Sequence record: MZ311864.1
Reading direction: 5' to 3' (one strand)
Origin: Escherichia phage vB_EcoM_LNA4
DNA: 64,000 nucleotides
Shown here: one piece after another, positions 952 through 30,802 of the stretch
Layout: the number at the start of each line of letters is the position of its first letter
Position numbering within the stretch: position 1 is the stretch's first letter
The notes under the pieces: model-generated
The model's input: only the letters and a program-made list of their open reading frames with translations
Told to the model about the DNA's origin: nothing
The model's database searches: none
Translations under genes and position numbers: made by a program

Positions 952-3573
952 ATGGCAGATTACAATGATAAGGTCGTTAACGCCGAACTGATCCTCCCAG
1001 AGGGCGGTGCGGGGGAGACCTTTGTTGATGATGGTCAATTCCACACGGAAGACACGACCACCGTCACACTTCTCGGTAATGGTACATCCACTACCCCACT
1101 GAAGGCAACTGTTATTGTAGATCCTGCTTCCGGAAACGCACTTGTAGCTGGCTCTGACGGTCTTTCCGTTGGTGTCAGTACAATCAGTGACAACCTGCTT
1201 GTATTGGCGGGTGGAAAGCTGTATGTTGCTCCTCCTCAGATCGTCATCCCAATTTCTACTAAGACTGGAAACACTCTAGTAGAAGTCACCGACCCAGGTG
1301 AAGAGGGGCTATATGTCCCGCCGGGTGAAAAGGGTGATAAAGGGGATCAGGGGCCGCAAGGTGAACCGGGTGTCGGTATTTACATCCAAGGTATTGTTGG
1401 AGATCCATCCCAACTACCGCCTGCATCAACAATGCAGGAAGGCGATACATACGTTATTGGAACACACTACTGGACTGTTGTAAACCAGCAATGGGTTGAC
1501 CTTGGTGACTTCGCTGGTCCACAGGGACAGGACGGTATCGGCTTGGTAATCAAAGGATCTTTCACCGACACTGCATTCCTTCCGCAAGATGGGAACACCG
1601 AAGGTGATACCTACATCATCCAGGAACAGATGTGGGTTTGGACAGGAAATGAAGACGGCTGGCAACCAGTTGGGCAAGTTGGACCAACAGGCCCACAGGG
1701 TGCTACTGGTGCTACAGGCCCACAGGGTCCTCAAGGTTTAAAAGGCGACAAGGGTGACAAGGGTGACCAAGGCCCTCAAGGTATTCAAGGCCTCACCGGA
1801 GAACAGGGTCCTCAAGGACCTAAAGGTGATAAAGGTGAAGATGCTGCCATTGTTAAACTGAAAGGTACTAAAGCCACTGAAGCTGATCTTCCGGCTTTCG
1901 GTAATGCTGTCGCTGATGCTTGGGTTGTACAGGAAAACAACCACGTATGGGTTTGGACATCAGATGGTGCCTGGGAAGATATTGGCCCTGTACAGGGTCC
2001 GAAGGGTGATCAAGGTGATGTTGGCCCTCAAGGACCACAGGGACAGAAAGGCGACCAAGGTCCAATCGGCCCTGATGGTGCCCCTGGCCCAGCAGGTGCT
2101 GAAGGCCCTCAAGGTATTCAGGGTCCAATCGGCCCTAAAGGTGACAAAGGCGATACAGGTCTAACTGGTCCAGTAGGCCCACAAGGTCCAGTTGGACCAA
2201 AGGGTGACCGTGGCGAAACAGGTTATGGTGCTCGCGTTCTTGGTACTAAAGGCTCAACCGTCGATCTTCCAGCTACAGGAACACCTGGTGACGCATGGAT
2301 CATTGTGCCTAACCTTTACGTCTGGAGTCAGTCTGATGCTCAATGGATCAACGTAGGTCCTTATGTAGGACCGAAGGGTGATAAAGGCGATACTGGGGAT
2401 GTTGGTGCAACAGGCCCTAAAGGTGATACTGGCGCTGATGGGCCGCAGGGTCCACAGGGTGATGTTGGCCCCCAAGGACCAGCAGGTGCTGATGGAGCAC
2501 AAGGACCAGAGGGACCTATGGGTGTTGCTCTTGTTCCGAAAGGTACTGTAGCTAGCCAAGCTGCATTGCCGACAGGTGCATCGCACGGGGATTATTACAC
2601 AACTGATGACACCGGGGAAGGCTTTGCTTTTGATGGTTCCGGTTGGATTAATCTTGGTGTTATGAGAGGTCCTCAAGGGGATCAAGGTCCACAAGGGCTA
2701 CAGGGCGACACGGGGCCACAAGGTCCGAAGGGCGACACAGGACTTACAGGACCAACAGGACCGCAAGGCCCTCAAGGTGAAATGGGTCCTGGTGTAGAGA
2801 TCATCGGCAAACTGGACAACAGTTCTGAACTACCTTCAACAGGTACATTAGGCCAGGGATACCTGATCAATGGTGACTTCTGGGGGTGGACAGGAACAAC
2901 CTACGAAAACCTTGGACCTATTCAAGGACCTCAAGGTGATGTTGGTCCAGCAGGACCAACTGGTCCACAGGGTAGCCAAGGGATTCAGGGTGTTAAGGGA
3001 GACCAAGGTACACTTTGGTTAAACTTTGCACGTAACCCAGGCCCTGCTGATGGTCGTGTTGGGGATTACTTCATTAACAAATCTACACTTGAATATTTCC
3101 AGAAAACCTCTGCTACGGTATGGGCTTCTCTCGGATATATGGGTGGTGGTAACGTTTATGATACCTCCTCTACCACACCACAAGCTCGTACAAGTTCAGG
3201 TTGGGTGGATGTTCCAGTTCTTGAAGCACCTACTGATAGCGGTTATTATGTTCGTGTAAACAGCGCATGGAAGAAGCTTGATCGTTACGATCTTCTTGTT
3301 ACCTCCACGACTGGTGCAATGGACGTTAACGTATCACAAGTGTTCAAAGTCGATGGTACTGCAAACAAGACCATGAGCTTTACAAACCTCCCTGCTGACC
3401 GAGCGATGACAATCGTGATCGTGTTTACTGGTTCCGGTGCGTCACTGACGTGGCCTGGAAACCTTGCATGGTCAAACGGTACGTCAGTAACTCTTGGAAC
3501 AACCCGTACAGTGGTGACTATCCTTTGGGATGGCACAAACCTGACAGGTACTACATCCTTAACGGTTAACTGA
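952..3573 (+). CDS. collagen-like repeat protein (Gly-X-Y tracts), putative fibre/decoration protein
   Basis: 873 aa; long GPQGxxGxKGDxG runs alternating with seven Trp-containing modules; AAGGGG RBS. Confidence 0.85.
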   Translation: MADYNDKVVNAELILPEGGAGETFVDDGQFHTEDTTTVTLLGNGTSTTPLKATVIVDPASGNALVAGSDGLSVGVSTISDNLLVLAGGKLYVAPPQIVIPISTKTGNTLVEVTDPGEEGLYVPPGEKGDKGDQGPQGEPGVGIYIQGIVGDPSQLPPASTMQEGDTYVIGTHYWTVVNQQWVDLGDFAGPQGQDGIGLVIKGSFTDTAFLPQDGNTEGDTYIIQEQMWVWTGNEDGWQPVGQVGPTGPQGATGATGPQGPQGLKGDKGDKGDQGPQGIQGLTGEQGPQGPKGDKGEDAAIVKLKGTKATEADLPAFGNAVADAWVVQENNHVWVWTSDGAWEDIGPVQGPKGDQGDVGPQGPQGQKGDQGPIGPDGAPGPAGAEGPQGIQGPIGPKGDKGDTGLTGPVGPQGPVGPKGDRGETGYGARVLGTKGSTVDLPATGTPGDAWIIVPNLYVWSQSDAQWINVGPYVGPKGDKGDTGDVGATGPKGDTGADGPQGPQGDVGPQGPAGADGAQGPEGPMGVALVPKGTVASQAALPTGASHGDYYTTDDTGEGFAFDGSGWINLGVMRGPQGDQGPQGLQGDTGPQGPKGDTGLTGPTGPQGPQGEMGPGVEIIGKLDNSSELPSTGTLGQGYLINGDFWGWTGTTYENLGPIQGPQGDVGPAGPTGPQGSQGIQGVKGDQGTLWLNFARNPGPADGRVGDYFINKSTLEYFQKTSATVWASLGYMGGGNVYDTSSTTPQARTSSGWVDVPVLEAPTDSGYYVRVNSAWKKLDRYDLLVTSTTGAMDVNVSQVFKVDGTANKTMSFTNLPADRAMTIVIVFTGSGASLTWPGNLAWSNGTSVTLGTTRTVVTILWDGTNLTGTTSLTVN
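1285..3010 (+). repeat. Gly-X-Y codon repeat region inside collagen-like gene
   Basis: Repeated ggtccNcaaggt / aaaggtgataaaggcga units visible at DNA level. Confidence 0.7.
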
Positions 3574-15310: not shown

Positions 15311-16011
15311 TGGCATCAATTCAACGTATGGATGCTGCACTAAACCAATGGTTTGCTCGTCAGGCTCGTGATATCCACACAGGCCTGAGAGCCAGGGTTG
15401 TGGATGTGGATTATAATGTACCATCAGCAACCGTACAACCACTGGCTTCAACTAACTTCGATGATGGCACCGTAGACGCTTATCCTGCTGTTTTTGACGT
15501 CCCCCTGTCCATGCCTTCGGCTAACGGGGGAAAGGCTCGCCTGACGCTTCCTGTGAAGCCTGGTGATGTTGTAGGACTATCATTCTCTGAACGTAATGAG
15601 GGTGATGCAAATGACACGACAACCCACGGACTTTTTCCTGGTTGGTCAATCATTGGTGTACACAGTGATGGAAACGCGATGACCATTCACCCGGACAACG
15701 TGGAGTTATGGAACGACACTGTTCATTTCTCAATGACTCCGGAGGGGGACTTTACTTTAACAGGTCCACAAGGGACTTTCAAGGTAGATAAATCTGGTCA
15801 AATGCAATTCACAAACGGTGCTGCAACCTTGACAGCAAAGAGTGATGGGAATATCGAAATGAATGGTGCAAAGATCACCCCTGACGGGAACTTAATCACC
15901 GCCCGTGGTGTTAACATGAACGATTTCTATGATTACTTCATGCGACACACCCACCACTACACCTGGACGGACGGCTCTGGTCAGAGCGATACTGCCCGAC
16001 CTAACGCATAA
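15310..16011 (+). CDS. putative baseplate spike/assembly protein
   Basis: 233 aa ORF preceding the gp25-like gene. Confidence 0.4.
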   Translation: MASIQRMDAALNQWFARQARDIHTGLRARVVDVDYNVPSATVQPLASTNFDDGTVDAYPAVFDVPLSMPSANGGKARLTLPVKPGDVVGLSFSERNEGDANDTTTHGLFPGWSIIGVHSDGNAMTIHPDNVELWNDTVHFSMTPEGDFTLTGPQGTFKVDKSGQMQFTNGAATLTAKSDGNIEMNGAKITPDGNLITARGVNMNDFYDYFMRHTHHYTWTDGSGQSDTARPNA

Positions 16012-16020
16012 GGGGAATAA

Positions 16021-16638
16021 ATGGCAACTCTTTATTCTGACCTTCTAATGGACCCGGTTACTGGAGACCTTGATGTCTCCACGGGTCTTCAGATCATTGA
16101 GTCCAACCAGACAAGCCTCCGTCAAAGACTATGGCTTCGCTTCAACATCTGGGCTGGAAACTGGTATTTCGATGAGACTTTTGGTTTCCCATACCGAACA
16201 TATCTGAGCAAGAAGGTAATGAAAACTGTCCTTGACAACAAGATCAAGGAAGTGACCCGTCTTGAGCCTGACGTGCTTGAGATCACCTCATTCCACTCTT
16301 CAATGGATCGTACAACACGTAGTTACCAGGCCTTCTTCGAAGTAACAACTAAAGAGCAAGAGGTTGTAAGACTTGCTTTCGTAGGGCAGGATGAGTATTA
16401 TTACCCAATCCCTGATGAAGGTGCAACGGTTCTTTGTGACGACGATGGTTGGATTACGTGGGCTAACAAGCTTTACTACCTGATCAACTTCCGTCTGCCT
16501 CGCACTGGCGATGCTACATGGTGGAACACTTGGGCTGGTACGGATATTGATAACCCAATTCCGGTCGGTAGCCTGATGGATGACAAGAACAACGTCATCA
16601 CCACTGAAGATGGCAAGTCCATTAACCGTAACCACTAA
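16021..16638 (+). CDS. baseplate wedge protein (gp25/W-like)
   Basis: N-terminal pattern GDLDVSTGLQIIESNQTSLRQRLWLRFNIWAGNWYFDETFGFPY resembles gp25/W-family baseplate proteins. Confidence 0.5.
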   Translation: MATLYSDLLMDPVTGDLDVSTGLQIIESNQTSLRQRLWLRFNIWAGNWYFDETFGFPYRTYLSKKVMKTVLDNKIKEVTRLEPDVLEITSFHSSMDRTTRSYQAFFEVTTKEQEVVRLAFVGQDEYYYPIPDEGATVLCDDDGWITWANKLYYLINFRLPRTGDATWWNTWAGTDIDNPIPVGSLMDDKNNVITTEDGKSINRNH

Positions 16639-16648
16639 GGGGTAAATA

Positions 16649-17323
16649 ATGGCAGATGTTGCATTTCCAACAGTGAAGGTCTCTGACCTTCCTACTGCCG
16701 TCACCGTTTCCGGTGGCGATTTTGTTGTTACCGATCAGTCAGACACAACCAGAAAAGCTTCGCTGGACACAATTGTTTCCAAAATGAGCTTGACAAGAGT
16801 TGTGTTTTTTGCTGAGGGGGGTTATCTTGAGTCCAAAAAAGACCTCGCCTTCTTCGCAACTGATGGAAAATATTACACATGGAATGGGACTTACCCGAAG
16901 ACAATTCCAATGTCTTCATCCCCTGCGACAACCGGGGGAATTAGTTCTAATGCTTGGCAAGAGTTTGGTGCAAGTGGTGGAGGTAGCTCTACAGGTAAGG
17001 TTGTTAATTTAGGGAGCGTCCAGGGGACTGCAACCTGTAACCTTTCTCTTGGAGATACTTTCGTTGCTAATCTTACCTCCGGGCAGTGTGTGGTTGGTAT
17101 CACCAACCCATCTACCGCCCAAGGTATTTCCCAGACTTTCCAGTTATCTTTGACCCAAGGGACAGGTGCAAATCTCGTTTCATGGCCTAGTAACATTAAG
17201 TGGAACTATGGGCGAGAGCCAGTTCTTTCATACAAAACCGGAGTACGAGACATCTTCCAGTTCGTCACCTATGACGGGGGGAATACGTGGTTCGGCTCCC
17301 TCATTATGGCAGGAGTTGAGTAA
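16649..17323 (+). CDS. tailspike N-terminal anchor-domain protein
   Basis: First ~100 aa homologous to N-terminus of the 20122 tailspike (PTVKVSDLPTA...GDFVVTDQSD.TRK...WNGTYPK). Confidence 0.55.
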   Translation: MADVAFPTVKVSDLPTAVTVSGGDFVVTDQSDTTRKASLDTIVSKMSLTRVVFFAEGGYLESKKDLAFFATDGKYYTWNGTYPKTIPMSSSPATTGGISSNAWQEFGASGGGSSTGKVVNLGSVQGTATCNLSLGDTFVANLTSGQCVVGITNPSTAQGISQTFQLSLTQGTGANLVSWPSNIKWNYGREPVLSYKTGVRDIFQFVTYDGGNTWFGSLIMAGVE

Positions 17324-20112
17324 TGGCAAAGTTAAGCCACAACATTGATAATGTGTTTCAGTTGATCGACGGACACATTCAGTTTCTTCAGAGAAACACC
17401 GGAGAGACAATCGATCCTACGGTTCAGCACTATATCCTGAACTTACAAAATGTTCTGGCTAACAACCGCCACTTCATCAACTGGACGGCGCAGGAAGCCC
17501 AACCAAATGGTGACGCAACAACCGAGGGTCAGTCAGTGCTGATCCTCGGCTGTGCTTATGCGTATCTCGCGTCTAATGACCCGAAATACCTTGAACTCGC
17601 AGAGGCCTATTGGCAGGCATATATCGACTGGTTCTTTGCGGGTCAGCCAATTCCTGATCCCCCTGCGGTATATCGCCCTAACTGGATCATTAATGGAAAA
17701 GAACCCCGCCTTGCTCACTACCCTCTTACCGATGATGGGTATCCAACCCACGGTGGTTTTAAGGGAAGTGTAATGTCATGGACAAACGGAAGAACCCTGA
17801 TCCCGCATGGCGCTCCTAATTGGGGTGAGTACCTTGACAAAGCTTGGTTTGCTTTTGACGGCAACCTTGGGTGGAACTCTGTCAACGCCACGGTGTATAA
17901 AGAAAACCCAGATGGAAGCACCAACTGGAATGAGTACGGTTCACAGTGGGATGTAGACTGGATCATTGATCGTCTGGGACGCAAGGTTGACTGGGATGGT
18001 AACATTCTCGAAGAGGGTCTTCCTGAATCCCAGTGGGGAACTGTTCAACTGAAGGATACCACAATCACGGGCAATTACAAGTTCAACTATGCGACATGTA
18101 ACCCTGTTGAGCATGGTGGATATCTGATGGGTAGAAATACCATGTGGCACAACCGCCCGGTTAACGTACCTATTGAAATGGGCTTCCAGGATAATGCCTC
18201 TGACGCAGAAACTTGGTGGTGCGATGCAAACTACGTGATGTATCAGATCACCGGGGAAAGAAAATACTGGCTTTGCTGGCAGTCTTCACTAATCGTCTGT
18301 GATAACTATTCAGATATCGACCGTTTTGACAAGTTCTTCCGTAAGTCAACATTCGCGACAATCCCATTCACCGACGGGATCAGTTATGACTACTCATATC
18401 CGTCAACGGCAATTCCTCAGTATTCTCGTGATTCTGATGGGTATATCGGTATTCGCCAAACTGTAGCAGCGCAAACTACCCTTGAGCAACAGGCAATCTG
18501 GTTCCGTGTTGACGGCACTTCAAAGCTCCGTGTTCAGTTCTCAGGGAAAGATGATGCTGGCAATGGGCTGCTATTCAGGCCAGAGCTTGATCTTAATAAA
18601 ACAAAATCTGAAACCGGAAGAGTAACCTATCGTTGTGGTCTTCCACGCGGTACAGACTCTATCGTTTCTATGGATATCCCCCTCTCAAACTTCGTGAGAC
18701 TAACCCCTCCGGGGGGCGGCAGTTACATTGTAGCAGACCCGCGTATTGTTGTTGATTGGGGATCTAACACGGTTATTGACTTCCAGTACCAGACAGGTAT
18801 CCTTGGAAGAATCAATGACCAAGCTTGTACGCTTGTGACCGATGCAGATGGTGGATGCACTATTGGTTTCTGGTTAACAGATACCGAGACCGCCGATCTT
18901 TCAGCGTTCACATACCGTTCTTATGCAGACAATTTTAACATTACCATCACCGACGACAACCTGTGGAGATGGTGGGCTATGGTTCCTGCGACCAACGGGG
19001 ATTGGACAACGCTCCAGTTGTCTCCGTCAAACTTTGTACTCAGCAGTTACCAACCCGACCACCCGGAAACAGATCCTAAACCAAACCAGATCAGTCTTCA
19101 CAATCTGAAGCAGATCAACTTGGCACCGGACACAGATCCGGTTGATGGTGTTAGCGCGAAGATCGACTGGTACTGTATCAACGCAGTTCCTGAGTTATAC
19201 ACCTCCACAGGTGGTGATGACTACACGATGTATTTCCGTATCACCGTGTCCGGGGACAACGCGTACAATGCTAAACTGGGCGACTGCACGATCATCGACT
19301 ACAAGACTAACAGCCTGTATTACACCCCAGGGTTGATTCCATTCTCTAACATTAGTGACCCTAACACGGCACTTTATGATGGGTGGCGAGGTCTTCCATA
19401 CCCAGGATATCAGTACCCAACCCTGTACTGCTTCAAAGGCCAGAATATCGACTGGACAAGGTTGAATAGTACGATTGATTTCCTGTACGACTCACAGATG
19501 TGGTTTTATAACACATTCCACCCTGTTATGCCGGGGCCTATGGCACAGGCATTTGTATGGGATCGATGGGATGCCCGTAAATATGGTCAACCAAACACCT
19601 TCACCATGAAACACTGGAACGAGAAGGCTTGGGACGGCTATGAGGCTCGTGCTTTCTTCTGTGTGTGTCGTTGCATCTATGAACTCTCTCAGCGTGGTGA
19701 GTCCATTCCTAGCAAGCTATTTACTGTTGCGAAGAACTGGGTTGATTATCTGAAGTGGTTCCAAGACAACAACGAGGGCCGTACCCCAACAATCTTTAAC
19801 CCTGACGGTACTGTTCTGGCACCAGAGGATGACTTTACAAGCCACATGTCAGCGTTGTTCATGGGTGGTTGCTCCATCCTCGGAATGGCGGGGATGCGTA
19901 ACCGTATTCCTAATATTGACATTGTGGCGGAGCGTTGTTTCAGTCTGATCCAAGAGAACTACATCATTCTTACTGCCAATCACCCTATGAATGGTAGCTG
20001 GTCTGTTGCCCCTCGTGCAGATACTGACAATGGGATGTTCTTTGGCTTCCATGCTGGGGAACTGTTACGAGGATTTGGACTGTATGCTATGTACAGAAAC
20101 CTTACAAGATAA
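17323..20112 (+). CDS. large tail-associated protein, possible polysaccharide-degrading receptor-binding protein
   Basis: 929 aa; ATG overlaps stop of anchor-domain gene (TAATG); Trp/Tyr-rich. Confidence 0.55.
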   Translation: MAKLSHNIDNVFQLIDGHIQFLQRNTGETIDPTVQHYILNLQNVLANNRHFINWTAQEAQPNGDATTEGQSVLILGCAYAYLASNDPKYLELAEAYWQAYIDWFFAGQPIPDPPAVYRPNWIINGKEPRLAHYPLTDDGYPTHGGFKGSVMSWTNGRTLIPHGAPNWGEYLDKAWFAFDGNLGWNSVNATVYKENPDGSTNWNEYGSQWDVDWIIDRLGRKVDWDGNILEEGLPESQWGTVQLKDTTITGNYKFNYATCNPVEHGGYLMGRNTMWHNRPVNVPIEMGFQDNASDAETWWCDANYVMYQITGERKYWLCWQSSLIVCDNYSDIDRFDKFFRKSTFATIPFTDGISYDYSYPSTAIPQYSRDSDGYIGIRQTVAAQTTLEQQAIWFRVDGTSKLRVQFSGKDDAGNGLLFRPELDLNKTKSETGRVTYRCGLPRGTDSIVSMDIPLSNFVRLTPPGGGSYIVADPRIVVDWGSNTVIDFQYQTGILGRINDQACTLVTDADGGCTIGFWLTDTETADLSAFTYRSYADNFNITITDDNLWRWWAMVPATNGDWTTLQLSPSNFVLSSYQPDHPETDPKPNQISLHNLKQINLAPDTDPVDGVSAKIDWYCINAVPELYTSTGGDDYTMYFRITVSGDNAYNAKLGDCTIIDYKTNSLYYTPGLIPFSNISDPNTALYDGWRGLPYPGYQYPTLYCFKGQNIDWTRLNSTIDFLYDSQMWFYNTFHPVMPGPMAQAFVWDRWDARKYGQPNTFTMKHWNEKAWDGYEARAFFCVCRCIYELSQRGESIPSKLFTVAKNWVDYLKWFQDNNEGRTPTIFNPDGTVLAPEDDFTSHMSALFMGGCSILGMAGMRNRIPNIDIVAERCFSLIQENYIILTANHPMNGSWSVAPRADTDNGMFFGFHAGELLRGFGLYAMYRNLTR

Positions 20113-20121
20113 GAGGAATTA

Positions 20122-22260
20122 ATGGCAGAACTATTACCTACCGTCAAGATTTCGGACCTGCCGACTGCGACGGATTCTTTCGAGGGAGATTTTCTGGTTG
20201 TTGACCAATCGGATGCTACACGTAAATCCACATGGTCAAGCCTGTTTTCCCGCTTCGGTGTTATGCGTATGTTCTCATTCCAGGATGGTGGTACGCTGAC
20301 CTCCGCTAAGGACCAGGTAATTGACCGAACAACCAACAAGGTATACCAGTGGACGGGGACTTACCCTAAGCTGGTCCCTGCTAACTCAACCCCGGAAAGC
20401 ACCGGGGGTGTTGGCACCGGAGGGTGGTCAGTTAACGATCCTTCTCTCCGTGGAGACCTTGCCGGGATCAACGGATCAACCTACGTTGGTGGCCCTGCGG
20501 GTACGGTGGCACAATCCCTTGATGGGTTTGTAACACCCTCTCAGTTTGTTGGGAAATACCCATCAACAAGTGAAGCAGTAACTGCAATGGTTGCTTATGC
20601 GAAAACCAACAAGAAAGCTATTCTGGCTTGGGGCTGGGAACTGACACTAGAGACAAGTGTTTACATCGACGGTGTAGAGTGGTATGGTGGTGCATTCAAC
20701 CAGTCCGGCGGTAACCGCTATATGTACTTGTCAAACAGTACATTCCGTTGGACTACCTTTACTGGGGTTTGTACCCGCCACTACGGTGGGCGACTGATCA
20801 TCACTGATTCTGCTTGGTTAAACAACACAAACACAGCAGCAATGCTGATTCAGGCACTCCCTGTTGATGGTACAATTGACATTCTTGACAGTGATTTCCG
20901 TGGGTGTAAATACGGTATCCTGCAACAAGGTACTGGCGCTCTGATCACCCGTGCTCGTTTTGCTCGACTGAACTTCAATGATTTGACAGGCGATGCGATT
21001 GAGTGTAACGTTGTTAACCGTCACTACAAAGCGGGTGGTTTGACAATCGAAGATATCAACATTGACAATATCAACAACACAGACAACTCTCCTAACTGGG
21101 GTATCGGTATCGGTGTTGCTGGTCAGGGTCCATACGGTGCCAACGCTTCCGATGACCAGTACGTCAGTGGGATCATCATTCGTAACGTCAAGATGCGCCG
21201 TGTACGTCAGTGTATCCACTTCGAACTTTGCCGAGATTTCAAGGTAGAGAACGTAGAGGTTTACCCGGACGCTTCCGTTTCTAACGGTACACTTCTGGCA
21301 TCGGGCGGTGTTGTTTGCTACGGCTCTAAAGACTTCATCATTGATGGTGTTCGTGGAGAGATGGTTAATGGTGCAACACGCTTCATTTACTTTGGTTGGG
21401 GTGTTAACGCCGGAACATATGCTGCTCCGTGTCGTGACTTTACGTTGAGAAACGTTAGAACCCACACTGGGCTGGTAGACATCCCTGTGAGTGCCAGAGA
21501 TGACTGGACTAACACTGTGACGGTTGAGGATGTCGAGTGCGACACCTTCAAATACCGTGGTCTTGTTTCACGTCTTCGTCTTGCAGACATCCGTTGCAAT
21601 CTCTTTGATGGTATCGGTGACTACGAGGCAGGCCAAGGTGAGGCAGGTGGGGCTATGAAACGCTGGGCTTGGTGTTCTGCCGAGATCCTGAATATCAACA
21701 GCCTTGATGCTAACGGTGTTGCGAACGGTAGTTTTGGACAGGTTGGCTTCGACCATGTTACGACATACGGTTGTAACTTTGACGTAGTTCAACACTCCAA
21801 GACAAATGGTAACCGTGGTGTTACACTGTTGAACGCTGGGAACATTTACATCGCTGATAACGACCTTTTCCCACAAGGTAAAGAGTTCGTGAAAGGTGAC
21901 ATCATTCTTAAAAAGACTGGTGGTTTATTCGTTGTTGAAACTGGAGGTTCCTACATTGAAGCAAATGACTTTATCCGTGCTACAACAGTCGGATCTAAGA
22001 CCATTCAATGTGCTGCCGATTCCGGAGTAAGTCAGCCTTGGGCGACTCGTGCGTTTAAATCCGCAGGTCTCCAGTTGACCATCCCAGGAGCAGGCGCTGG
22101 AGGTACAGACCTGAAGACAACCGTCATTCGCGCTCCATATCAAAACGGGGCCTGGACAACACCGTTCTATCTGGATATTGCTGATCCTATTCAGACAGCC
22201 ACTCCTGATAATACGGCTCTTGTTTCAACAAACCCGGTAGTATACAGCGAAAGGACTTAA
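20122..22260 (+). CDS. tailspike protein with beta-helix-type repeats
   Basis: 712 aa; conserved N-terminal anchor domain then Asn/Gly/Val-rich repeats typical of parallel beta-helix depolymerases. Confidence 0.65.
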   Translation: MAELLPTVKISDLPTATDSFEGDFLVVDQSDATRKSTWSSLFSRFGVMRMFSFQDGGTLTSAKDQVIDRTTNKVYQWTGTYPKLVPANSTPESTGGVGTGGWSVNDPSLRGDLAGINGSTYVGGPAGTVAQSLDGFVTPSQFVGKYPSTSEAVTAMVAYAKTNKKAILAWGWELTLETSVYIDGVEWYGGAFNQSGGNRYMYLSNSTFRWTTFTGVCTRHYGGRLIITDSAWLNNTNTAAMLIQALPVDGTIDILDSDFRGCKYGILQQGTGALITRARFARLNFNDLTGDAIECNVVNRHYKAGGLTIEDINIDNINNTDNSPNWGIGIGVAGQGPYGANASDDQYVSGIIIRNVKMRRVRQCIHFELCRDFKVENVEVYPDASVSNGTLLASGGVVCYGSKDFIIDGVRGEMVNGATRFIYFGWGVNAGTYAAPCRDFTLRNVRTHTGLVDIPVSARDDWTNTVTVEDVECDTFKYRGLVSRLRLADIRCNLFDGIGDYEAGQGEAGGAMKRWAWCSAEILNINSLDANGVANGSFGQVGFDHVTTYGCNFDVVQHSKTNGNRGVTLLNAGNIYIADNDLFPQGKEFVKGDIILKKTGGLFVVETGGSYIEANDFIRATTVGSKTIQCAADSGVSQPWATRAFKSAGLQLTIPGAGAGGTDLKTTVIRAPYQNGAWTTPFYLDIADPIQTATPDNTALVSTNPVVYSERT

Positions 22261-22263
22261 ATA

Positions 22264-22288
22264 ACAAGGGGCTTCGGCCCCTTTTCTC
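22264..22288 (+). terminator. rho-independent terminator (GGGGC-UUCG-GCCCC)
   Basis: Hairpin followed by ttttctc. Confidence 0.75.
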
Positions 22289-22298
22289 ATTATAAGCC

Positions 22299-22327
22299 TT
22301 TATAATTAAATCACAATATGATAAAAT
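22299..22327 (+). promoter_or_regulatory. sigma70-like promoter candidate (TATAAT and TGaTAAAAT -10-like elements)
   Basis: AT-rich region between terminator and GTG-start gene. Confidence 0.4.
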
Positions 22328-22368
22328 AGCAACATCTTAGAGCAAAAATCTAGCAAGAGGAGGCGTTC

Positions 22369-23862
22369 GTGGCTGCTCAATATGGATTAAACGACTACGG
22401 CTTTGCGATCCCATCCCTTGATGATCTAATCGCAGATACAAAGCAGTCACTAATCCGAACTTTCGGTGAGAACTTCAACACACAGTCAAACACTATTGTT
22501 GATAAGCTTACCACAATTTTGAATGAAAGGGAGTACCAGTTAATCCTTCTGGCTGCGGCTGTGTATTCTGCACAGACCCTTGCAGGTGCTGAAGGTATTT
22601 ACCTGGATGAACTGCTTGGTCGTCGTGGTATTTATCGTCGTGGGAAAACAAGAGGCTCCGGTACGGTACAGATGGTTGTAAACAACACTGTGCCATACAA
22701 CATGATCTACAGTGCTGCAACATATAGCATCGACAGTGGCAACTTCGTACTTAACCAAGACACCCCGGTAGCTGGTAATATCCTTGCACAGCAAATCCTG
22801 AACCCGGACTGGGTGCTTGGTAACTACACCTTCCAGATGATGAACCAGAATGATGGTACAACTAAGACAATGGCCCTGACCCTGAGCAACAAAACGCCTA
22901 ACAGCGCTCAGATGAATGCCTTTATGTCTTCCATCAAAGACTTTATCATCCAGAACACCACGCAGTTAAACGAAGACAGAATCTTCATTGATTCTGCCAA
23001 CGGTGCTCTGTATATTGGTTATGATGCCAACAAAAAAATGATCGGTCTTAACAGCCGTGTTGATTTTCGTTCCTCCCCAGTTATCGGGCAGAGAACGATC
23101 ACGATGGATGTTATTGCCGCTGAAGCTGGTGAGATCTCTCGTGAAGCAAACACCGTAACAAACATCAGCCCAACCCCAAGTGGCTTTATCAGTATGACGA
23201 ACATGGCTGCATTTAACGATGGGTCAGACGTTGAAACCGATACAGACTACAAGGTCCGTGCTGCTAACAGTACAGCCGCTGGCGCTGCTGCTACCCGTCC
23301 TGCTGTCATCTCTGCTGTTCTTAACGTAGAGGGTGTCAGCAAGGTCCGTGTGTTCTCTAACAACACCGGATCAACGGATCAGTATGGTGTGCCTGCATAT
23401 AAGTTCGAAACTGTTGTGTATGGTGGTTCAACTGAGGATATCAGTCAAGCGCTTTATAACACAATTGCATTATCCAACGCAACCTATGGTAATGTCTTCT
23501 ATGATATCACCACAGAGGATGATCAGACAGAACGAATTTTCCACAGTAAGGCTCAGGCCCGTGAACTCGCACTTCGCGTTCGTTACAAAGGGAAACTTCT
23601 CTCAGTCACAGAGCAAAACACAATCAAAGATGCTTTGAAGGCAGTTGTTGATCCTTTAAACATCGCAGACACCCTGTACAACATTCAGTTGGTATCTGCG
23701 GTAGGTTCTTCAATCTCTCCTGGTCGATTCACTCAACTGTTTGTTGATGTAAAGAATGTTGGTCAACCAGACAGTTCCTACACAAACAGCGATGTGGTGG
23801 CCGGGATGACACAAGTCTTCGCACTGGATACAGACGACATCACCTTCCAGCAAATCATCTAA
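22369..23862 (+). CDS. baseplate J-like protein (gp6/gpJ family)
   Basis: GTG start with AGGAGG RBS; segment AEGIYLDELLGRRGIYRRGKTRGSGTVQMVV matches baseplate J-type pattern. Confidence 0.55.
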   Translation: MAAQYGLNDYGFAIPSLDDLIADTKQSLIRTFGENFNTQSNTIVDKLTTILNEREYQLILLAAAVYSAQTLAGAEGIYLDELLGRRGIYRRGKTRGSGTVQMVVNNTVPYNMIYSAATYSIDSGNFVLNQDTPVAGNILAQQILNPDWVLGNYTFQMMNQNDGTTKTMALTLSNKTPNSAQMNAFMSSIKDFIIQNTTQLNEDRIFIDSANGALYIGYDANKKMIGLNSRVDFRSSPVIGQRTITMDVIAAEAGEISREANTVTNISPTPSGFISMTNMAAFNDGSDVETDTDYKVRAANSTAAGAAATRPAVISAVLNVEGVSKVRVFSNNTGSTDQYGVPAYKFETVVYGGSTEDISQALYNTIALSNATYGNVFYDITTEDDQTERIFHSKAQARELALRVRYKGKLLSVTEQNTIKDALKAVVDPLNIADTLYNIQLVSAVGSSISPGRFTQLFVDVKNVGQPDSSYTNSDVVAGMTQVFALDTDDITFQQII

Positions 23863-27245: not shown

Positions 27246-29054
27246 GTGGCAGATATGACTCAATTTGAACAGGCTGTTGATCAGGTCATCGAAGACTCTG
27301 AACGCCTGCACAAAGTTGTCAACGGAACGGCTTCTGAAACTGTTGTTACTGAAGATGGTAGCACCATCCCAACAGTTCGTAAAGCACTTCTCGACAACTT
27401 ATTTTTCAAGACACCGCCTATTCCTTGGGTAGCCGGGTCTCAGGCAACGGTCTTTAACCAGCTTTACGCATTCAACGGTACAAATGGTATCCAGTGGTGG
27501 TATGCACCTGGTGCAACAGCAACCACCCCTGTAACCCTGCCTGCAAACCCATCTACCAGTGTAAGCTGGAGACTGTATAATGATGCGGCTGCGATGGCTT
27601 CCATCTATGCCCCTATCAACAGCCCGATCCTGACTGGTAACCCGCAGGCACCTACCCCTGCTGCTAACAGCAACAGCACCACGATTGCAACAACAGCCTT
27701 TGTGACAACAGCAATTGCAAGCGCACTGTCCAGCATCTCTGGTGGTAGCGTTACTTTTGCAAACGTAACTGTCTCTGGGGCAACAACACTGAATACCCTT
27801 ACCGTCAACGGCACAACTACGTTAAACGGTCCGGTGAACGCAGACAACTCTACGGGTCGTTTCCAGAACCTGATCTTGACTAAGCAGGCCTCCAGCCTGA
27901 CATTTGTCTACACAGATGCTGCTAACCCGACATTCTTCAAGACACGTCTTGATCCTTACGCGATCCAGACCCATAACCTGCAAACAGACATTATTGTCAA
28001 CGGTACAGTTTCCGCTGATGACACCACAATGTCAATGACGGGTGTTGGTAACAACGTCTTCGATTATGTTTATATTCGCGGTAATAACGCGAAAGATATC
28101 TCTGCTCCACGACTGAAAGTTTCAGGGATGACTGAGGTAGAGAACCTTCACATCACAGGCTCTGTAACTGGTTTAAGCTTCAGTGTAAATGGCTTAGATA
28201 TCAGCCCTAACTCTGTAACAACCACAGCAGGTATCACCGTAGGTTCCGATCTGCAAGTGAACGGGTCTGCAACGCTGGGGAACACCACGGTTTCAAGTCT
28301 TGAAGTGATCAATACCCTGAAGGTAGATGGTTCTACAACGCTTGTTGACTTCACAGCTTCAAGTGGTACAATCACAGGGCCTTTCACTGTCGGGGGACTA
28401 AGCAACCTGAATGGTGGTTTCACTACAGGATCAGCCAACGGTACAATCGGCGGCAACCTTTCTGTAACCGGATCAACAGAGCTTCTTTCTGGTCTGAATG
28501 TAACTGGCGATGTTGCGATCACTGGTAACCTATCAGCGACTGGCGATGTCAACCTGAATAACGGTTCCGGAACAACAACTGTCAACAACCTTGTGATCCA
28601 AGGTACTGTGACAGGGCTTACTGTTGACCTGACCGGACAATCCATCAGTGTGGCATCCTTGACCGCAACAGGATCTGTGACGACAGCAACACTGACTGTT
28701 CAGGATAGTGCAGACCTTCCTAATGCCCGTGTTGGATTCTTGACGCTGGTTGCGGAAGATGTTGAGAGTTCCACTGCGAACTGGACCCCAAGCGGGACAT
28801 CCAACATCTATACGGTTCTGGTTGACGCAGACCTGACAATCGGTGCATGGCCTTCTCCACCTAACGCATTCTCTGCAATGATTTACCTGACGCAGGATGC
28901 AACCGGAGGACACACGGTAACACTCGACCCTAACTATCTGGTGCTTAACAGCGAAACAATTAACCAGACAGCAGGGTCTGTGACTATTCTTCAACTTACC
29001 TACAACGGGGTTGAAGATGGGGTTATCGACACAGTGATTGTTCGTCGTCCATAA
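27246..29054 (+). CDS. long tail fibre protein
   Basis: 602 aa; GTG start with AAGGAG RBS; fibre repeat motif SPILTGNPQAPTPAANSNSTTIATTAFV; Thr/Asn/Gly-rich. Confidence 0.7.
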   Translation: MADMTQFEQAVDQVIEDSERLHKVVNGTASETVVTEDGSTIPTVRKALLDNLFFKTPPIPWVAGSQATVFNQLYAFNGTNGIQWWYAPGATATTPVTLPANPSTSVSWRLYNDAAAMASIYAPINSPILTGNPQAPTPAANSNSTTIATTAFVTTAIASALSSISGGSVTFANVTVSGATTLNTLTVNGTTTLNGPVNADNSTGRFQNLILTKQASSLTFVYTDAANPTFFKTRLDPYAIQTHNLQTDIIVNGTVSADDTTMSMTGVGNNVFDYVYIRGNNAKDISAPRLKVSGMTEVENLHITGSVTGLSFSVNGLDISPNSVTTTAGITVGSDLQVNGSATLGNTTVSSLEVINTLKVDGSTTLVDFTASSGTITGPFTVGGLSNLNGGFTTGSANGTIGGNLSVTGSTELLSGLNVTGDVAITGNLSATGDVNLNNGSGTTTVNNLVIQGTVTGLTVDLTGQSISVASLTATGSVTTATLTVQDSADLPNARVGFLTLVAEDVESSTANWTPSGTSNIYTVLVDADLTIGAWPSPPNAFSAMIYLTQDATGGHTVTLDPNYLVLNSETINQTAGSVTILQLTYNGVEDGVIDTVIVRRP

Positions 29055-29098: not shown

Positions 29099-30802
29099 AT
29101 GTTTCCTATTCCAAGCCTGTTCCTGCTAATGGCGGGTGGTGGTACAACACCCCTACCTCCTGGCGGGGTGAAAAAGATCGCTTTCTCCAGAGAACAAACA
29201 ACTGGTGTAAAAAGGTCTATGGCTATTCTTCTAACAGACGGAAGACTATACACCCAAGGTGATAACGCGTGGGGTGAATGTGCAGACGGAACAACAAGCC
29301 CGTTCTACGACCACTGGAAACTCGCTGCAAGTAATGTAGCAGATGTTTTCGGTGTTGGGAAGGCTTTTGTAGTAAAATATAATAATGGTGGCTGGCAGTA
29401 TGCGGGGGACCAAGGACAATTTACAGGTGTCACCTCTAACATGATGGCGTGGACAAGTTTCCCATCCTCAATCACAGGGACTGTGAACCTTGCAAACCTC
29501 TCCAGTGTTATTGGTGGGGGTGGTAACACGTTGTGGTTGATGAACAATGGAACGCTGTATGGTAGCGGGTCCAATGCGAATGGGTGCCTTGGGTCAGGAA
29601 ACAGTAACTCAATCTCTATCCCAAGAACCATCAGCACCTCTTGTGTCAGGGCATACGGTCTACAGGCCTGTACTACATACCTCAACAACGTCGGTGTTCC
29701 TCGTGTCTGCGGTTCTCCATACGGGATCAATGGCTCGTTTGTTGCTATTATGAGTTATGCAAACGTAACGTTCCCAGGTGCCACAGGAACAATCTACGCA
29801 AAAGAGTGGATGTGTAACGAATCAAACACCATCGCCATTGCCTCCACCGGGGCATCAGACACAGATCACTATCTGTATACTCGTGGTATCACAACCAGTA
29901 ATGGTGCATACGAGAAAGTTGCCGGGTTTGGGCCTTTCACAACCTTCCGTGTGATCGAGGGCGGTCAGTCAAGATTCTTTATCGCTGATGATGTTTTATA
30001 TGCTCTTGGTGATTCACAGCGTACCCTTGGGCTTGGAGACACCACAACAGCGGTAACTGTGCCGACTGTTATCCCTGTGCCTACCGGGGCAGATTGGGAC
30101 CTTAGCAAGCTGACTTACGTGGCTGACATGAAAGGCGATAACCTGTCACAAGGTGGGACTATCGGGCACTGGATAGTTTATGATGGGAACCTATTCTACA
30201 CTGGGAGCGCAAAAGGATTCTTCGGGACCACAACCTCTGTCGGTAAGTTCACCAACGTTCCAGAGAACTCTTTCGAGGGTATCCGTGCCGACTCTATCAC
30301 AACAGGATCAATTGGCGTGGCGATTGTTGGTACTACGAAACAGCTTACGTGGTCTATTGATCCACCGGGGGCTGAAATCTATGACCTACAGTTTAGCTCA
30401 AGTCATCCAGAGTTTGCAACAATTGATGCGAATGGGCTTATGACCTTCGTTGCTGAGGGGGGTTTTGACATCACCATGACGGCGAAGACAGGGACAAGCG
30501 CAACAACCTTGACAGATACTTCAGGGGGTTATGCTTCAACACTTGGAATGGCTACTGATAGCCTTTCTGCGATGACTGTCGGTGAGACAAAACAGCTTGT
30601 TTATACGGTAACACCAGCGGGTGTTGAGAACCTTGACGGGTACTCTATCTCCTTCTCCAGTGAAGACCCAACGGTTGCGACAGTAAGCTCTACCGGGCTG
30701 ATCACAGCAGTTGCTGATGGTGGGACTCGTATCCATGCGACGGCAGCGGTCCAGACCGTAACAGCAGACGATAGCTCTTATCTGTCAGTGAACGCACCAT
30801 AA
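29099..30802 (+). CDS. RCC1-like repeat protein with two C-terminal Ig-like (Big_2-type) domains
   Basis: 567 aa; repeats like YTQGDNAWGECADG and LYGSGSNANGCLGSG; two similar Ig-like modules at C-terminus; AGGAGG RBS. Confidence 0.55.
   Translation: MFPIPSLFLLMAGGGTTPLPPGGVKKIAFSREQTTGVKRSMAILLTDGRLYTQGDNAWGECADGTTSPFYDHWKLAASNVADVFGVGKAFVVKYNNGGWQYAGDQGQFTGVTSNMMAWTSFPSSITGTVNLANLSSVIGGGGNTLWLMNNGTLYGSGSNANGCLGSGNSNSISIPRTISTSCVRAYGLQACTTYLNNVGVPRVCGSPYGINGSFVAIMSYANVTFPGATGTIYAKEWMCNESNTIAIASTGASDTDHYLYTRGITTSNGAYEKVAGFGPFTTFRVIEGGQSRFFIADDVLYALGDSQRTLGLGDTTTAVTVPTVIPVPTGADWDLSKLTYVADMKGDNLSQGGTIGHWIVYDGNLFYTGSAKGFFGTTTSVGKFTNVPENSFEGIRADSITTGSIGVAIVGTTKQLTWSIDPPGAEIYDLQFSSSHPEFATIDANGLMTFVAEGGFDITMTAKTGTSATTLTDTSGGYASTLGMATDSLSAMTVGETKQLVYTVTPAGVENLDGYSISFSSEDPTVATVSSTGLITAVADGGTRIHATAAVQTVTADDSSYLSVNAP

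What the first reader, a model, noticed from the sequence alone, without database searches (positions are those of the whole stretch)
16649..22260. Two receptor-binding proteins share one N-terminal anchor domain; one is split into anchor and enzyme ORFs
The first roughly 100 residues of the 224-aa protein (16649) and the 712-aa tailspike (20122) are clearly homologous (TVKVSDLPTA...GDF.V.DQSD.TRK...W.GTYPK). The 224-aa protein is followed, with TAATG overlap, by a 929-aa large protein. This suggests either a two-component tailspike (adaptor plus enzyme) or a once-fused gene now split, alongside a second complete tailspike.
Basis: seen in the sequence. Interest (0 to 1): 0.5.

Follow-up and report, generated by a model that had tools for sequence, protein, structure and literature searches.

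The report
Phage tail adaptor, glycosidase-like partner, colanidase spike
In this Cronobacter/Salmonella-type myophage, a small tail protein and a colanic-acid-degrading tailspike share one attachment domain; the small protein is probably the adaptor for the large sugar-cleaving-type protein encoded next to it, and this gene pair is old and found in hundreds of phages.

Summary
The 224-aa (16649-17323) and 712-aa (20122-22260) proteins share 47% identity over their first 103 residues (E 8e-28). The 929-aa gene starts on the 224-aa stop codon (TAATG).

The window is a Seunavirus, 94% identical to Cronobacter phage GAP31. The three genes are orthologues of phi92 gp140, gp141 and a gp143-type anchor carrying a gp150 colanidase body, and of rV5 gp43, gp42 and gp41.

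"Adaptor plus enzyme" is supported indirectly:
- The 224-aa protein is not only an anchor. Residues 118-224 form a conserved beta-sandwich ("C-dom").
- C-dom ends the gene immediately upstream of every complete, unfused ~940-aa homologue examined: 77 of 77 loci, plus 26 of 39 bacterial-genome loci.
- The adaptor's N-terminal module changes with the virion type.

"Recently split gene" is not supported, because the split form is ancestral and widespread. Fusions are rare: to P2 gpI in 18 loci, and to C-dom in one prophage.

Binding, enzymatic activity and substrate remain untested. I rate it a new member of a known kind, of moderate interest.

The parts
16021..16638 (+). Context gene: 205-aa sheath-initiator / gp25-like baseplate protein (homologue of phi92 gp139). 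The three-gene module begins 10 nt after it.
   Evidence: phrog_4233 and phrog_120 'baseplate wedge subunit'. Position matches GAP31_220, PVP-SE1 gp052 and phi92 gp139. phi92 gp139 is assigned as sheath initiator by cryo-EM (PMC13450770).
16649..17323 (+). 224-aa adaptor protein (orthologue of phi92 gp140, rV5 gp43, PVP-SE1 gp051).
   Evidence: ORF. phrog_7760 'tail fiber protein', E 2e-112. 45% identity to rV5 gp43 over 219 aa. C-terminal half 51% identical to phi92 gp140.
16649..16783 (+). Residues 1-45 of the adaptor: the N-terminal anchor peptide plus a helix (33-45). This is the core of the shared attachment element.
   Evidence: An HMM of this 48-aa segment finds only the 224- and 712-aa proteins in the window, gp43 and gp41 in rV5, and gp140 and gp143 (E 7e-9) in phi92. 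Low pLDDT in the monomer model, helix at 33-45.
16784..16972 (+). Residues 46-108 of the adaptor: PF18668 Tail_spike_N globular domain.
17000..17320 (+). Residues 118-224 of the adaptor: 'C-dom', a beta-sandwich that follows a Gly/Ser linker (residues 105-117). Proposed docking domain for the 929-aa protein.
   Evidence: pLDDT above 90. Present at the extreme C-terminus of the gene immediately upstream of every complete, unfused 940-aa homologue. Found in 4506 representative protein clusters, and C-terminal in 135 of the 148 examined.
17311..17325 (+). Shine-Dalgarno AGGAG (17311-17315), the stop codon of the 224-aa gene (17321-17323) and the overlapping ATG of the 929-aa gene (17323-17325): a translational-coupling junction.
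   Evidence: Read directly from the sequence. The same kind of overlap occurs in distant loci, for example CACTAATGATT in L003.
17323..20112 (+). 929-aa (alpha/alpha)6-barrel, glycoside-hydrolase-like virion protein (orthologue of phi92 gp141, rV5 gp42, PVP-SE1 gp050).
18328..19392 (+). Residues 336-690 of the 929-aa protein: beta-sandwich insert, the least conserved part. A second, well conserved beta insert lies at residues 122-290 (nt 17686-18192).
   Evidence: Secondary structure of the model. Conservation over 73 homologues: 14% of positions are at least 90% conserved here, against 25-31% in the N- and C-terminal barrel segments (20% in 291-335) and 30% in insert A.
20122..22260 (+). 712-aa tailspike: a paralogous anchor (residues 1-102, nt 20122-20427) joined to a colanidase-like beta-helix body (residues 113-708, nt 20458-22245).
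   Evidence: BLASTP against the 224-aa protein. PF18668 57.9 bits. 6E0V phi92 gp150, E 1e-109. 36% identity to gp150 residues 208-798. phrog_6117 'colanic acid degradation'. WcaM-like region well below the curated cut-off.
22266..22283 (+). Terminator-like GC-rich hairpin (AAGGGGCTTCGGCCCCTT followed by a T-rich tail), 6 nt after the 712-aa stop codon. It closes the three-gene block.
   Evidence: In phage phiTE, which lacks the three genes, an annotated terminator directly follows the sheath-initiator gene.
22369..23862 (+). Context gene: 497-aa baseplate wedge protein (Baseplate_J; homologue of phi92 gp145). A candidate docking partner for the anchors.
   Evidence: PF04865 and phrog_6. In phi92, fibre I attaches to the C-terminal domain of gp145 (PMC13450770).

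Best explanation
The block 16649-22260 encodes two side appendages of the baseplate that use paralogous N-terminal anchors.

(1) A two-protein appendage. The 224-aa protein is a short adaptor, presumably trimeric. Its anchor (peptide and helix, then a PF18668 domain) plugs into the baseplate periphery. Its C-terminal beta-sandwich (C-dom) holds the 929-aa protein. That protein is an (alpha/alpha)6-barrel with beta-sandwich inserts, most likely a glycan hydrolase acting on a conserved surface or matrix polysaccharide. The two genes are translationally coupled.

(2) A one-protein tailspike. The 712-aa protein joins the same type of anchor to a phi92-gp150-type colanidase beta-helix.

The adaptor + 940-aa pair is an old, portable cassette. 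Phages re-target it to their own virion by exchanging only the adaptor's N-terminal module.

Shown here: the homologies, the predicted folds, the synteny, and virion association of the homologues. Inferred: adaptor-enzyme binding, oligomeric states, the docking site on the baseplate, catalysis and substrate.
For: Anchor paralogy:
- E 8e-28 in the window.
- The same pairing occurs in rV5 (gp43 and gp41, E 5e-18) and in phi92 (gp140 and gp143).
- Orthologues (50% identity) are slightly closer than paralogues (35-46%), so the duplication is old.

Cassette:
- C-dom lies at the end of the gene immediately upstream of all 77 complete, unfused 940-aa loci in my set.
- It also does so in 26 of 39 bacterial-genome loci. 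The rest are 9 gpI fusions, 2 loci cut by contig ends, 1 in-frame fusion and 1 lone gene.
- Adaptor lengths run from 107 to 563 aa with unrelated N-terminal modules.
- In the sipho-type Enterobacter prophage L003, the adaptor's N-terminal part (tested as its first 154 aa) and the protein encoded just after the 940-aa gene both match the major-tail-protein family phrog_158. Across the Enterobacter/E. coli prophage loci the two are paralogous at E 1e-11 to 1e-17.
- In P2-like prophages the 940-aa body is fused directly to the baseplate protein gpI (PF09684), and no C-dom gene is present.
- One Scandinavium prophage has C-dom and the 940-aa body in a single 1512-aa ORF, a Rosetta-stone-type fusion.

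Enzyme-like nature:
- Invariant acidic and aromatic motifs sit just before the helices of the predicted barrel: D64/E68, D294/E296, D750, D837, E913.

Virion association:
- rV5 gp41, gp42 and gp43 were detected by mass spectrometry (PMC3606486).
- phi92 gp141 is listed as a virion 'glycosidase' after Schwarzer 2012 (PMC5380687).

The module is accessory: phiTE, a related Vequintavirinae phage, has the sheath-initiator gene followed directly by the wedge gene.
Against: - No direct evidence of a 224-929 complex. Strict synteny and coupling also fit co-assembly without contact.
- C-dom is a widespread fibre-end domain and is not exclusive to this partner. Of five sampled C-dom proteins, three are not followed by a 940-aa gene. 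The window itself has a second C-dom-like domain at the end of an 873-aa collagen-like fibre.
- The 929-aa family matches no CAZy-type sequence family. The best PDB profile hit is GH76 at E 0.035.
- Its 43-57% identity across hosts is unusual for a receptor-specific depolymerase.
- Where the anchors dock is unknown. The 2026 phi92 cryo-EM study could not assign the arm of fibre I or fibre II and did not consider gp141.
Confidence: 0.6

Rival explanations
1. Recent gene fission: the 224-aa and 929-aa ORFs are the two halves of a once-continuous tailspike (anchor + enzyme), split by a mutation in this lineage.
For: The 224-aa N-terminus is the same module that heads the intact 712-aa tailspike. 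The ORFs abut with a 1-nt overlap. One distant prophage (L131) does have C-dom and the 940-aa body in a single ORF.
Against: The split arrangement is present in all 77 complete, unfused loci and in 531 phage records spanning myo-, podo-, sipho-type and jumbo genomes. The 224-aa protein has its own folded, conserved C-terminal domain. The 929-aa gene has its own Shine-Dalgarno sequence. No fusion was found among 120 homologues of the 929-aa protein or 148 C-dom representatives. The single fused form is divergent (39% identity) and isolated.
Confidence: 0.03
2. The 929-aa protein is a conserved structural or assembly component of the tail periphery. Its (alpha/alpha)6 barrel is non-catalytic (a scaffold or lectin-like binder), and the 224-aa protein is its assembly partner rather than an adaptor for an enzyme.
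For: Its high conservation across hosts of different orders (43-57% identity) is atypical for depolymerases. It is fused to the baseplate wedge protein gpI in P2-like prophages. Sources name it 'tail formation protein' or 'tail protein I'. Some homologues carry 500-700-aa C-terminal extensions, as a scaffold might. There is no sequence match to any GH family. The phi92 cryo-EM study describes an unassigned 'arm-like scaffold' in fibre I.
Confidence: 0.22
3. The 224-aa protein is an independent short fibre whose C-dom is itself the receptor-binding tip. The 929-aa protein attaches to the virion by other means, and the adjacency reflects co-regulation only.
Against: Some partners are only 107 aa, essentially C-dom alone with no virion anchor, yet still overlap the start of the 940-aa gene (L007, L086). 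C-dom is dispensable exactly where the 940-aa body is covalently fused to gpI. There is one in-frame C-dom-to-940 fusion. The 929-aa protein has no recognisable anchor of its own.
Confidence: 0.13

Closest known systems
phi92 gp140-gp141-(gp142)-gp143 and gp150; rV5 gp43-gp42-gp41; PVP-SE1 gp051-gp050-gp049; GAP31_221-223
   Same: Orthologous genes in the same place, between the sheath-initiator and wedge genes. The 929-aa protein is 78% identical to phi92 gp141. C-dom is 51% identical to that of gp140. The same 'small adaptor and neighbouring spike share an N-terminus' pattern occurs in all of them.
   Different: The distal body on the second anchor differs: colanidase-like here and in PVP-SE1, endosialidase in phi92, a 1272-aa fibre in rV5. 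phi92 gp140 lacks the PF18668 domain. In phi92 the colanidase sits on a different anchor, and that anchor here heads the 602-aa protein at 27246-29054.
Branched receptor-binding complexes of Ackermannviridae (CBA120 TSP1-4) and of phage G7C (gp66/gp63.1)
   Same: Both use the PF18668 domain just after the attachment region. In both, one protein carries another, so several glycan-active proteins hang from one baseplate site.
K1E / K1-5 / SP6 adaptor (gp37-type) plus tailspike
   Same: A small separate adaptor protein links an enzymatic spike to the tail. The phi92 cryo-EM authors draw the same analogy for fibre I.
   Different: No sequence or detected fold relationship. Those phages are podoviruses with beta-propeller or beta-helix enzymes.
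(alpha/alpha)6-barrel glycoside hydrolases (GH8, GH76, GH105, GH88, GH48) and AGE-type epimerases
   Different: 8-13% identity and no family-level sequence match. The barrel is interrupted by two large beta inserts (residues 122-290 and 336-690). Catalytic residues are not established.
phi92 gp150 colanidase tailspike (PDB 6E0V/6E0W)
   Same: Residues 113-708 of the 712-aa protein align end to end, E 1e-109, at 36% identity.
   Different: The N-terminal attachment region is replaced: gp143/gp140-type here, against gp150's own type.

Membership tests
PF18668 Tail_spike_N (TSP1/Gp66 N-terminal domain) | Score above Pfam's curated gathering cut-off (25 bits) | tested here: met
phi92 gp150-type colanidase tailspike | Full-length homology of the beta-helix body to the solved gp150 structure | tested here: met
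   6E0V, E 1.1e-109, query residues 113-708 against chain residues 30-620. phrog_6117, E 4e-293.
phi92 gp150-type colanidase tailspike | Colanic-acid-cleaving activity or conserved catalytic residues | not testable with these tools
   No catalytic-residue annotation was available. Activity needs an assay on colanic acid.
phi92 gp140/gp141-type adaptor + 940-aa cassette | A ~940-aa homologue immediately preceded, on the same strand with abutting or overlapping ends, by a gene that ends in C-dom | tested here: met
   Window: C-dom E 6e-46, and the 940-family profile matches the 929-aa protein over its full length. 78% identity to gp141 and 51% (C-dom) to gp140.
(alpha/alpha)6-barrel glycoside hydrolase (GH8 / GH76 / GH105 / GH88-like) | (alpha/alpha)6 barrel fold | tested here: met
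(alpha/alpha)6-barrel glycoside hydrolase (GH8 / GH76 / GH105 / GH88-like) | Sequence membership in a curated GH family | tested here: not met
   No Pfam or NCBIfam hit at E up to 0.1. The PDB profile search gives only GH76 at E 0.035 over 28 residues.
(alpha/alpha)6-barrel glycoside hydrolase (GH8 / GH76 / GH105 / GH88-like) | Catalytic acid/base residues in the equivalent positions | tested here: inconclusive
   Invariant D64, D294, D750 and E913, and nearly invariant E68, E296 and D837, lie just before the barrel helices. No superposition on a characterised active site was possible.
T4 gp10-like (XD-domain) branching adaptors, as in CBA120 TSP2/TSP4 and G7C gp66 | gp10-like XD docking domain in the adaptor | tested here: inconclusive

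The most novel reading that the evidence does not exclude
The C-dom adaptor and the ~940-aa (alpha/alpha)6 protein form a universal plug-in module. C-dom is a dedicated docking domain. The adaptor's N-terminal part is repeatedly replaced by a copy of whatever assembly domain the recipient virion already uses: a tailspike anchor in Vequintavirinae, a tail-tube protein in sipho-type prophages, and direct fusion to gpI in P2-like phages. The enzyme cleaves a glycan common to many Gammaproteobacteria. In phi92-like phages this complex would account for the still unassigned arm of fibre I or for fibre II.
Probability: 0.35. Interest if true: 0.55.

Novelty: new member of a known kind. Interest (0 to 1): 0.35.

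Why it matters
rV5-, phi92- and PVP-SE1-like phages are used as broad-host-range biocontrol and therapy agents. It is still unclear which genes build which side fibre (PMC8594841; PMC13450770).

Reading gp140-type proteins as adaptors for gp141-type glycosidase-like proteins gives a concrete, testable assignment for unassigned baseplate density.

It also suggests two handles for engineering. The shared anchor could be used to swap spike bodies. The C-dom/940-aa pair could be used to mount a conserved enzyme on other virions.

The 940-aa family is large: 531 phage records, plus prophages of many Gammaproteobacteria. It is unnamed in Pfam and has no solved structure.

Tried and rejected
- Sequence-family searches of the 929-aa protein found nothing usable: Pfam, NCBIfam, and PDB by single sequence and by profile.
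- The word-indexed homologue search with the 224-aa protein gave only 12 hits. An exhaustive search with C-dom alone replaced it.
- I looked for a paralogous anchor in the P2-like Pseudomonas prophage (173-aa adaptor against the gpH-like fibre) and found none.
- I tested whether phiTE's structurally resolved long-fibre attachment (the 'rip-cord bundle' with the sheath initiator) explains this anchor. It does not. phiTE lacks the three genes, and its long fibre corresponds to the window's 602-aa protein.
- My first, narrow C-dom HMM missed the divergent fused copy in L131. A broader HMM built from 181 segments found it.
- Schwarzer et al. 2012 (PMC3457257) is not held in the library, so its statements are cited only second-hand.
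- Literature searches for an explicit description of the adaptor-enzyme pairing found none.
- A complex prediction of the 224-aa and 929-aa proteins was not possible, because the tool folds single chains only.
Full report
**Identity of the window.** Positions 16000-23000 are 94% identical over their whole length to Cronobacter phage vB_CsaM_GAP31 (Seunavirus, Vequintavirinae). They are 81-89% identical to phages 4MG, PVP-SE1 and SSE121. The finding lies in the baseplate and fibre module. In GAP31 the gene order is spike, gp25-like protein, 'tail fiber protein' (223 aa), 'tail protein' (929 aa), 'colanic acid degradation' (712 aa), then the baseplate wedge.

**Observation.**
- The three ORFs are as described.
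- The 224-aa and 712-aa proteins align over residues 1-103 and 1-102 at 47% identity, E 8e-28. No other ORF in the window has this N-terminus.
- The 929-aa ATG shares its A with the TAA of the 224-aa gene. It is preceded by AGGAG at the right distance for a ribosome-binding site.

**What the shared region is.**
- Residues ~52-107 of both proteins match Pfam PF18668 (Tail_spike_N) above the curated threshold.
- The first ~45 residues are a separate element, with a helix at 33-45 in the model. A profile of this segment recovers exactly two proteins per genome: the 224- and 712-aa proteins here, gp43 and gp41 in rV5, and gp140 and endosialidase gp143 in phi92. phi92 gp140 lacks the PF18668 domain.
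- Orthologous adaptors (50% identity between this phage and rV5) are a little closer than paralogues within one genome (35-46%). The duplication is therefore old, and both copies stay under a common constraint. This fits binding to the same kind of site.

**The 712-aa protein.** Residues 113-708 align end to end with the phi92 gp150 colanidase crystal structure (E 1e-109), at 36% identity. In phi92 the colanidase body carries a different N-terminus. That N-terminus is found here on the 602-aa protein at 27246-29054. This is ordinary module shuffling among receptor-binding proteins.

**The 224-aa protein is more than an anchor.**
- After a Gly/Ser linker, residues 118-224 form a confidently predicted beta-sandwich with pLDDT above 90. 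I call it C-dom.
- An exhaustive search finds C-dom in 4506 representative clusters. It is at the extreme C-terminus in 135 of the 148 examined, and sometimes occurs in tandem.

**The 929-aa protein.**
- It matches nothing in Pfam, NCBIfam or PDB sequences.
- It belongs to a large, strongly conserved family of ~940-aa proteins, with 43-57% identity in Enterobacter, E. coli and Pseudomonas prophages.
- The family occurs in 531 phage records, including myoviruses, ~40-kb podovirus-type genomes and jumbo phages. It also occurs in prophages of many Gammaproteobacteria.
- The barrel is interrupted by two beta inserts.
- Invariant acidic and aromatic motifs lie immediately before the barrel helices. 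The large beta insert is the least conserved part.
- This points to a conserved sugar-binding or catalytic site. Neither activity nor substrate is shown.

**The pair is a conserved cassette.**
- In a set of 91 loci, all 77 complete, unfused 940-aa genes are directly preceded by a same-strand gene that abuts or overlaps their start and ends in C-dom.
- The other 14 loci are 9 proteins of ~1070-1097 aa, in which the P2 gpI baseplate domain (PF09684) is fused to the 940-aa body, and 5 loci cut by contig ends.
- An independent scan of bacterial genomes gave 39 loci:

| Class | Loci |
|---|---|
| C-dom gene immediately upstream | 26 |
| gpI fusion | 9 |
| Cut by a contig end | 2 |
| Lone gene, no upstream ORF | 1 |
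| C-dom and 940-aa body in one 1512-aa ORF (Scandinavium prophage) | 1 |

- The Scandinavium fusion was confirmed with a broader C-dom HMM and by ORF listing.
- Adaptor lengths range from 107 aa (C-dom alone) to 563 aa, with unrelated N-terminal parts.
- In the sipho-type Enterobacter prophage L003, the adaptor's N-terminal part (tested as its first 154 aa) and the protein encoded just after the 940-aa gene both match the major-tail-protein family phrog_158. Across the Enterobacter and E. coli prophage loci, the two are paralogous at E 1e-11 to 1e-17.
- Together, the adaptor's N-terminal module copies a resident assembly domain, and C-dom plus the 940-aa protein travel as a unit.
- No C-dom-to-940 fusion was found among 120 + 148 representative proteins.
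- This supports 'adaptor plus cargo' and rejects 'recent split'.

**Caveats.**
- C-dom is not exclusive to this partner. Three of five sampled C-dom proteins have other neighbours, one of them a Laminin_G_3 protein.
- The window's 873-aa collagen-like fibre (952-3573) ends in a related domain.
- Binding is inferred from synteny, translational coupling, the 107-aa C-dom-only partners, the gpI fusions that dispense with C-dom, and the single in-frame fusion.

**Virion context.**
- rV5 gp41, gp42 and gp43 were detected in virions by mass spectrometry (PMC3606486).
- phi92 gp141 is listed as a predicted glycosidase of the adsorption apparatus (PMC5380687).
- The 2026 phi92 cryo-EM study could not assign the arm of fibre I or fibre II, and does not discuss gp141 (PMC13450770).
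- The BASEL study states that it is unclear which genes build which fibre (PMC8594841).
- Phage phiTE, a relative with a solved baseplate, lacks all three genes. Its sheath-initiator gene is followed by a terminator and then the wedge gene. The three-gene block is therefore an accessory insertion.
- Here a terminator-like hairpin follows the 712-aa gene.

**Verdict.** The anchor-sharing and adaptor-plus-enzyme reading is reasonable and is now backed by comparative evidence. The split-gene reading is wrong. The genes are orthologues of annotated genes in well-known phages, and shared anchors and adaptor-mounted enzymes are established principles. I therefore rate this a new member of a known kind. 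The breadth and portability of the C-dom/940-aa cassette, and the (alpha/alpha)6 fold of the cargo, are the parts worth following up.

Noticed in passing
window 952-3573 (+): An 873-aa collagen-like repeat fibre encoded upstream of the tail-sheath gene. Its C-terminal part (residues ~608-872, phrog_19200 'virion structural protein') contains a C-dom-like domain (residues 787-860, E 1.5e-8 with the broad C-dom HMM). It is followed by a 214-aa ORF, not by a 940-aa gene.
   Followed up: partly
window 27246-29054 (+) and 29099-30802 (+): Residues 5-111 of the 602-aa fibre are 51% identical to the phi92 gp150 N-terminus, while its C-terminus resembles that of phi92 gp151. The colanidase body and its phi92 anchor have therefore been separated in this phage. 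The 567-aa neighbour matches RCC1-like ('regulator of chromosome condensation') and Ig-domain PHROG families.
   Followed up: partly
window 22266-22283 (+): A GC-rich hairpin with a UUCG loop and a T-rich tail, 6 nt after the 712-aa gene, followed by an AT-rich 85-nt spacer before the wedge gene. It is probably the terminator that in phiTE sits directly after the sheath-initiator gene.
   Followed up: partly
L131 1673-6211 (Scandinavium hiltneri prophage): A single 1512-aa ORF combining an N-terminal module, a divergent C-dom (residues ~158-252 of the open frame) and a 940-aa-family body with insertions. It is the only in-frame C-dom-to-940 fusion seen.
   Followed up: partly
L006, L080-L090 (IMG/VR) and L109, L111-L118 (Serratia and Pseudomonas lundensis genomes): P2-like prophages encode proteins of ~1070-1097 aa in which the baseplate protein gpI (PF09684) is fused to the 940-aa body. 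The gene sits directly after the gpJ gene, with no C-dom gene.
   Followed up: partly
L007 7001-11863, L086 4001-8839: Homologues of the 940-aa protein that are 1612-1635 aa long, with 500-700-aa C-terminal extensions (weak PF21722 Gly_rich_2 hit). They are preceded by a 107-aa protein that is essentially C-dom alone.
   Followed up: no
L095 880-2300: A 242-aa C-dom protein with collagen repeats overlaps by 4 nt a 231-aa Laminin_G_3 protein. This suggests C-dom can pair with cargo other than the 940-aa family.
   Followed up: no
one search hit list: Several records named 'Campylobacter phage' (A13b, C11, D1, C3; 58-146 kb) carry rV5-like or phi92-like versions of these genes at the same identity as E. 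coli phages. Their host labels look doubtful.
   Followed up: no
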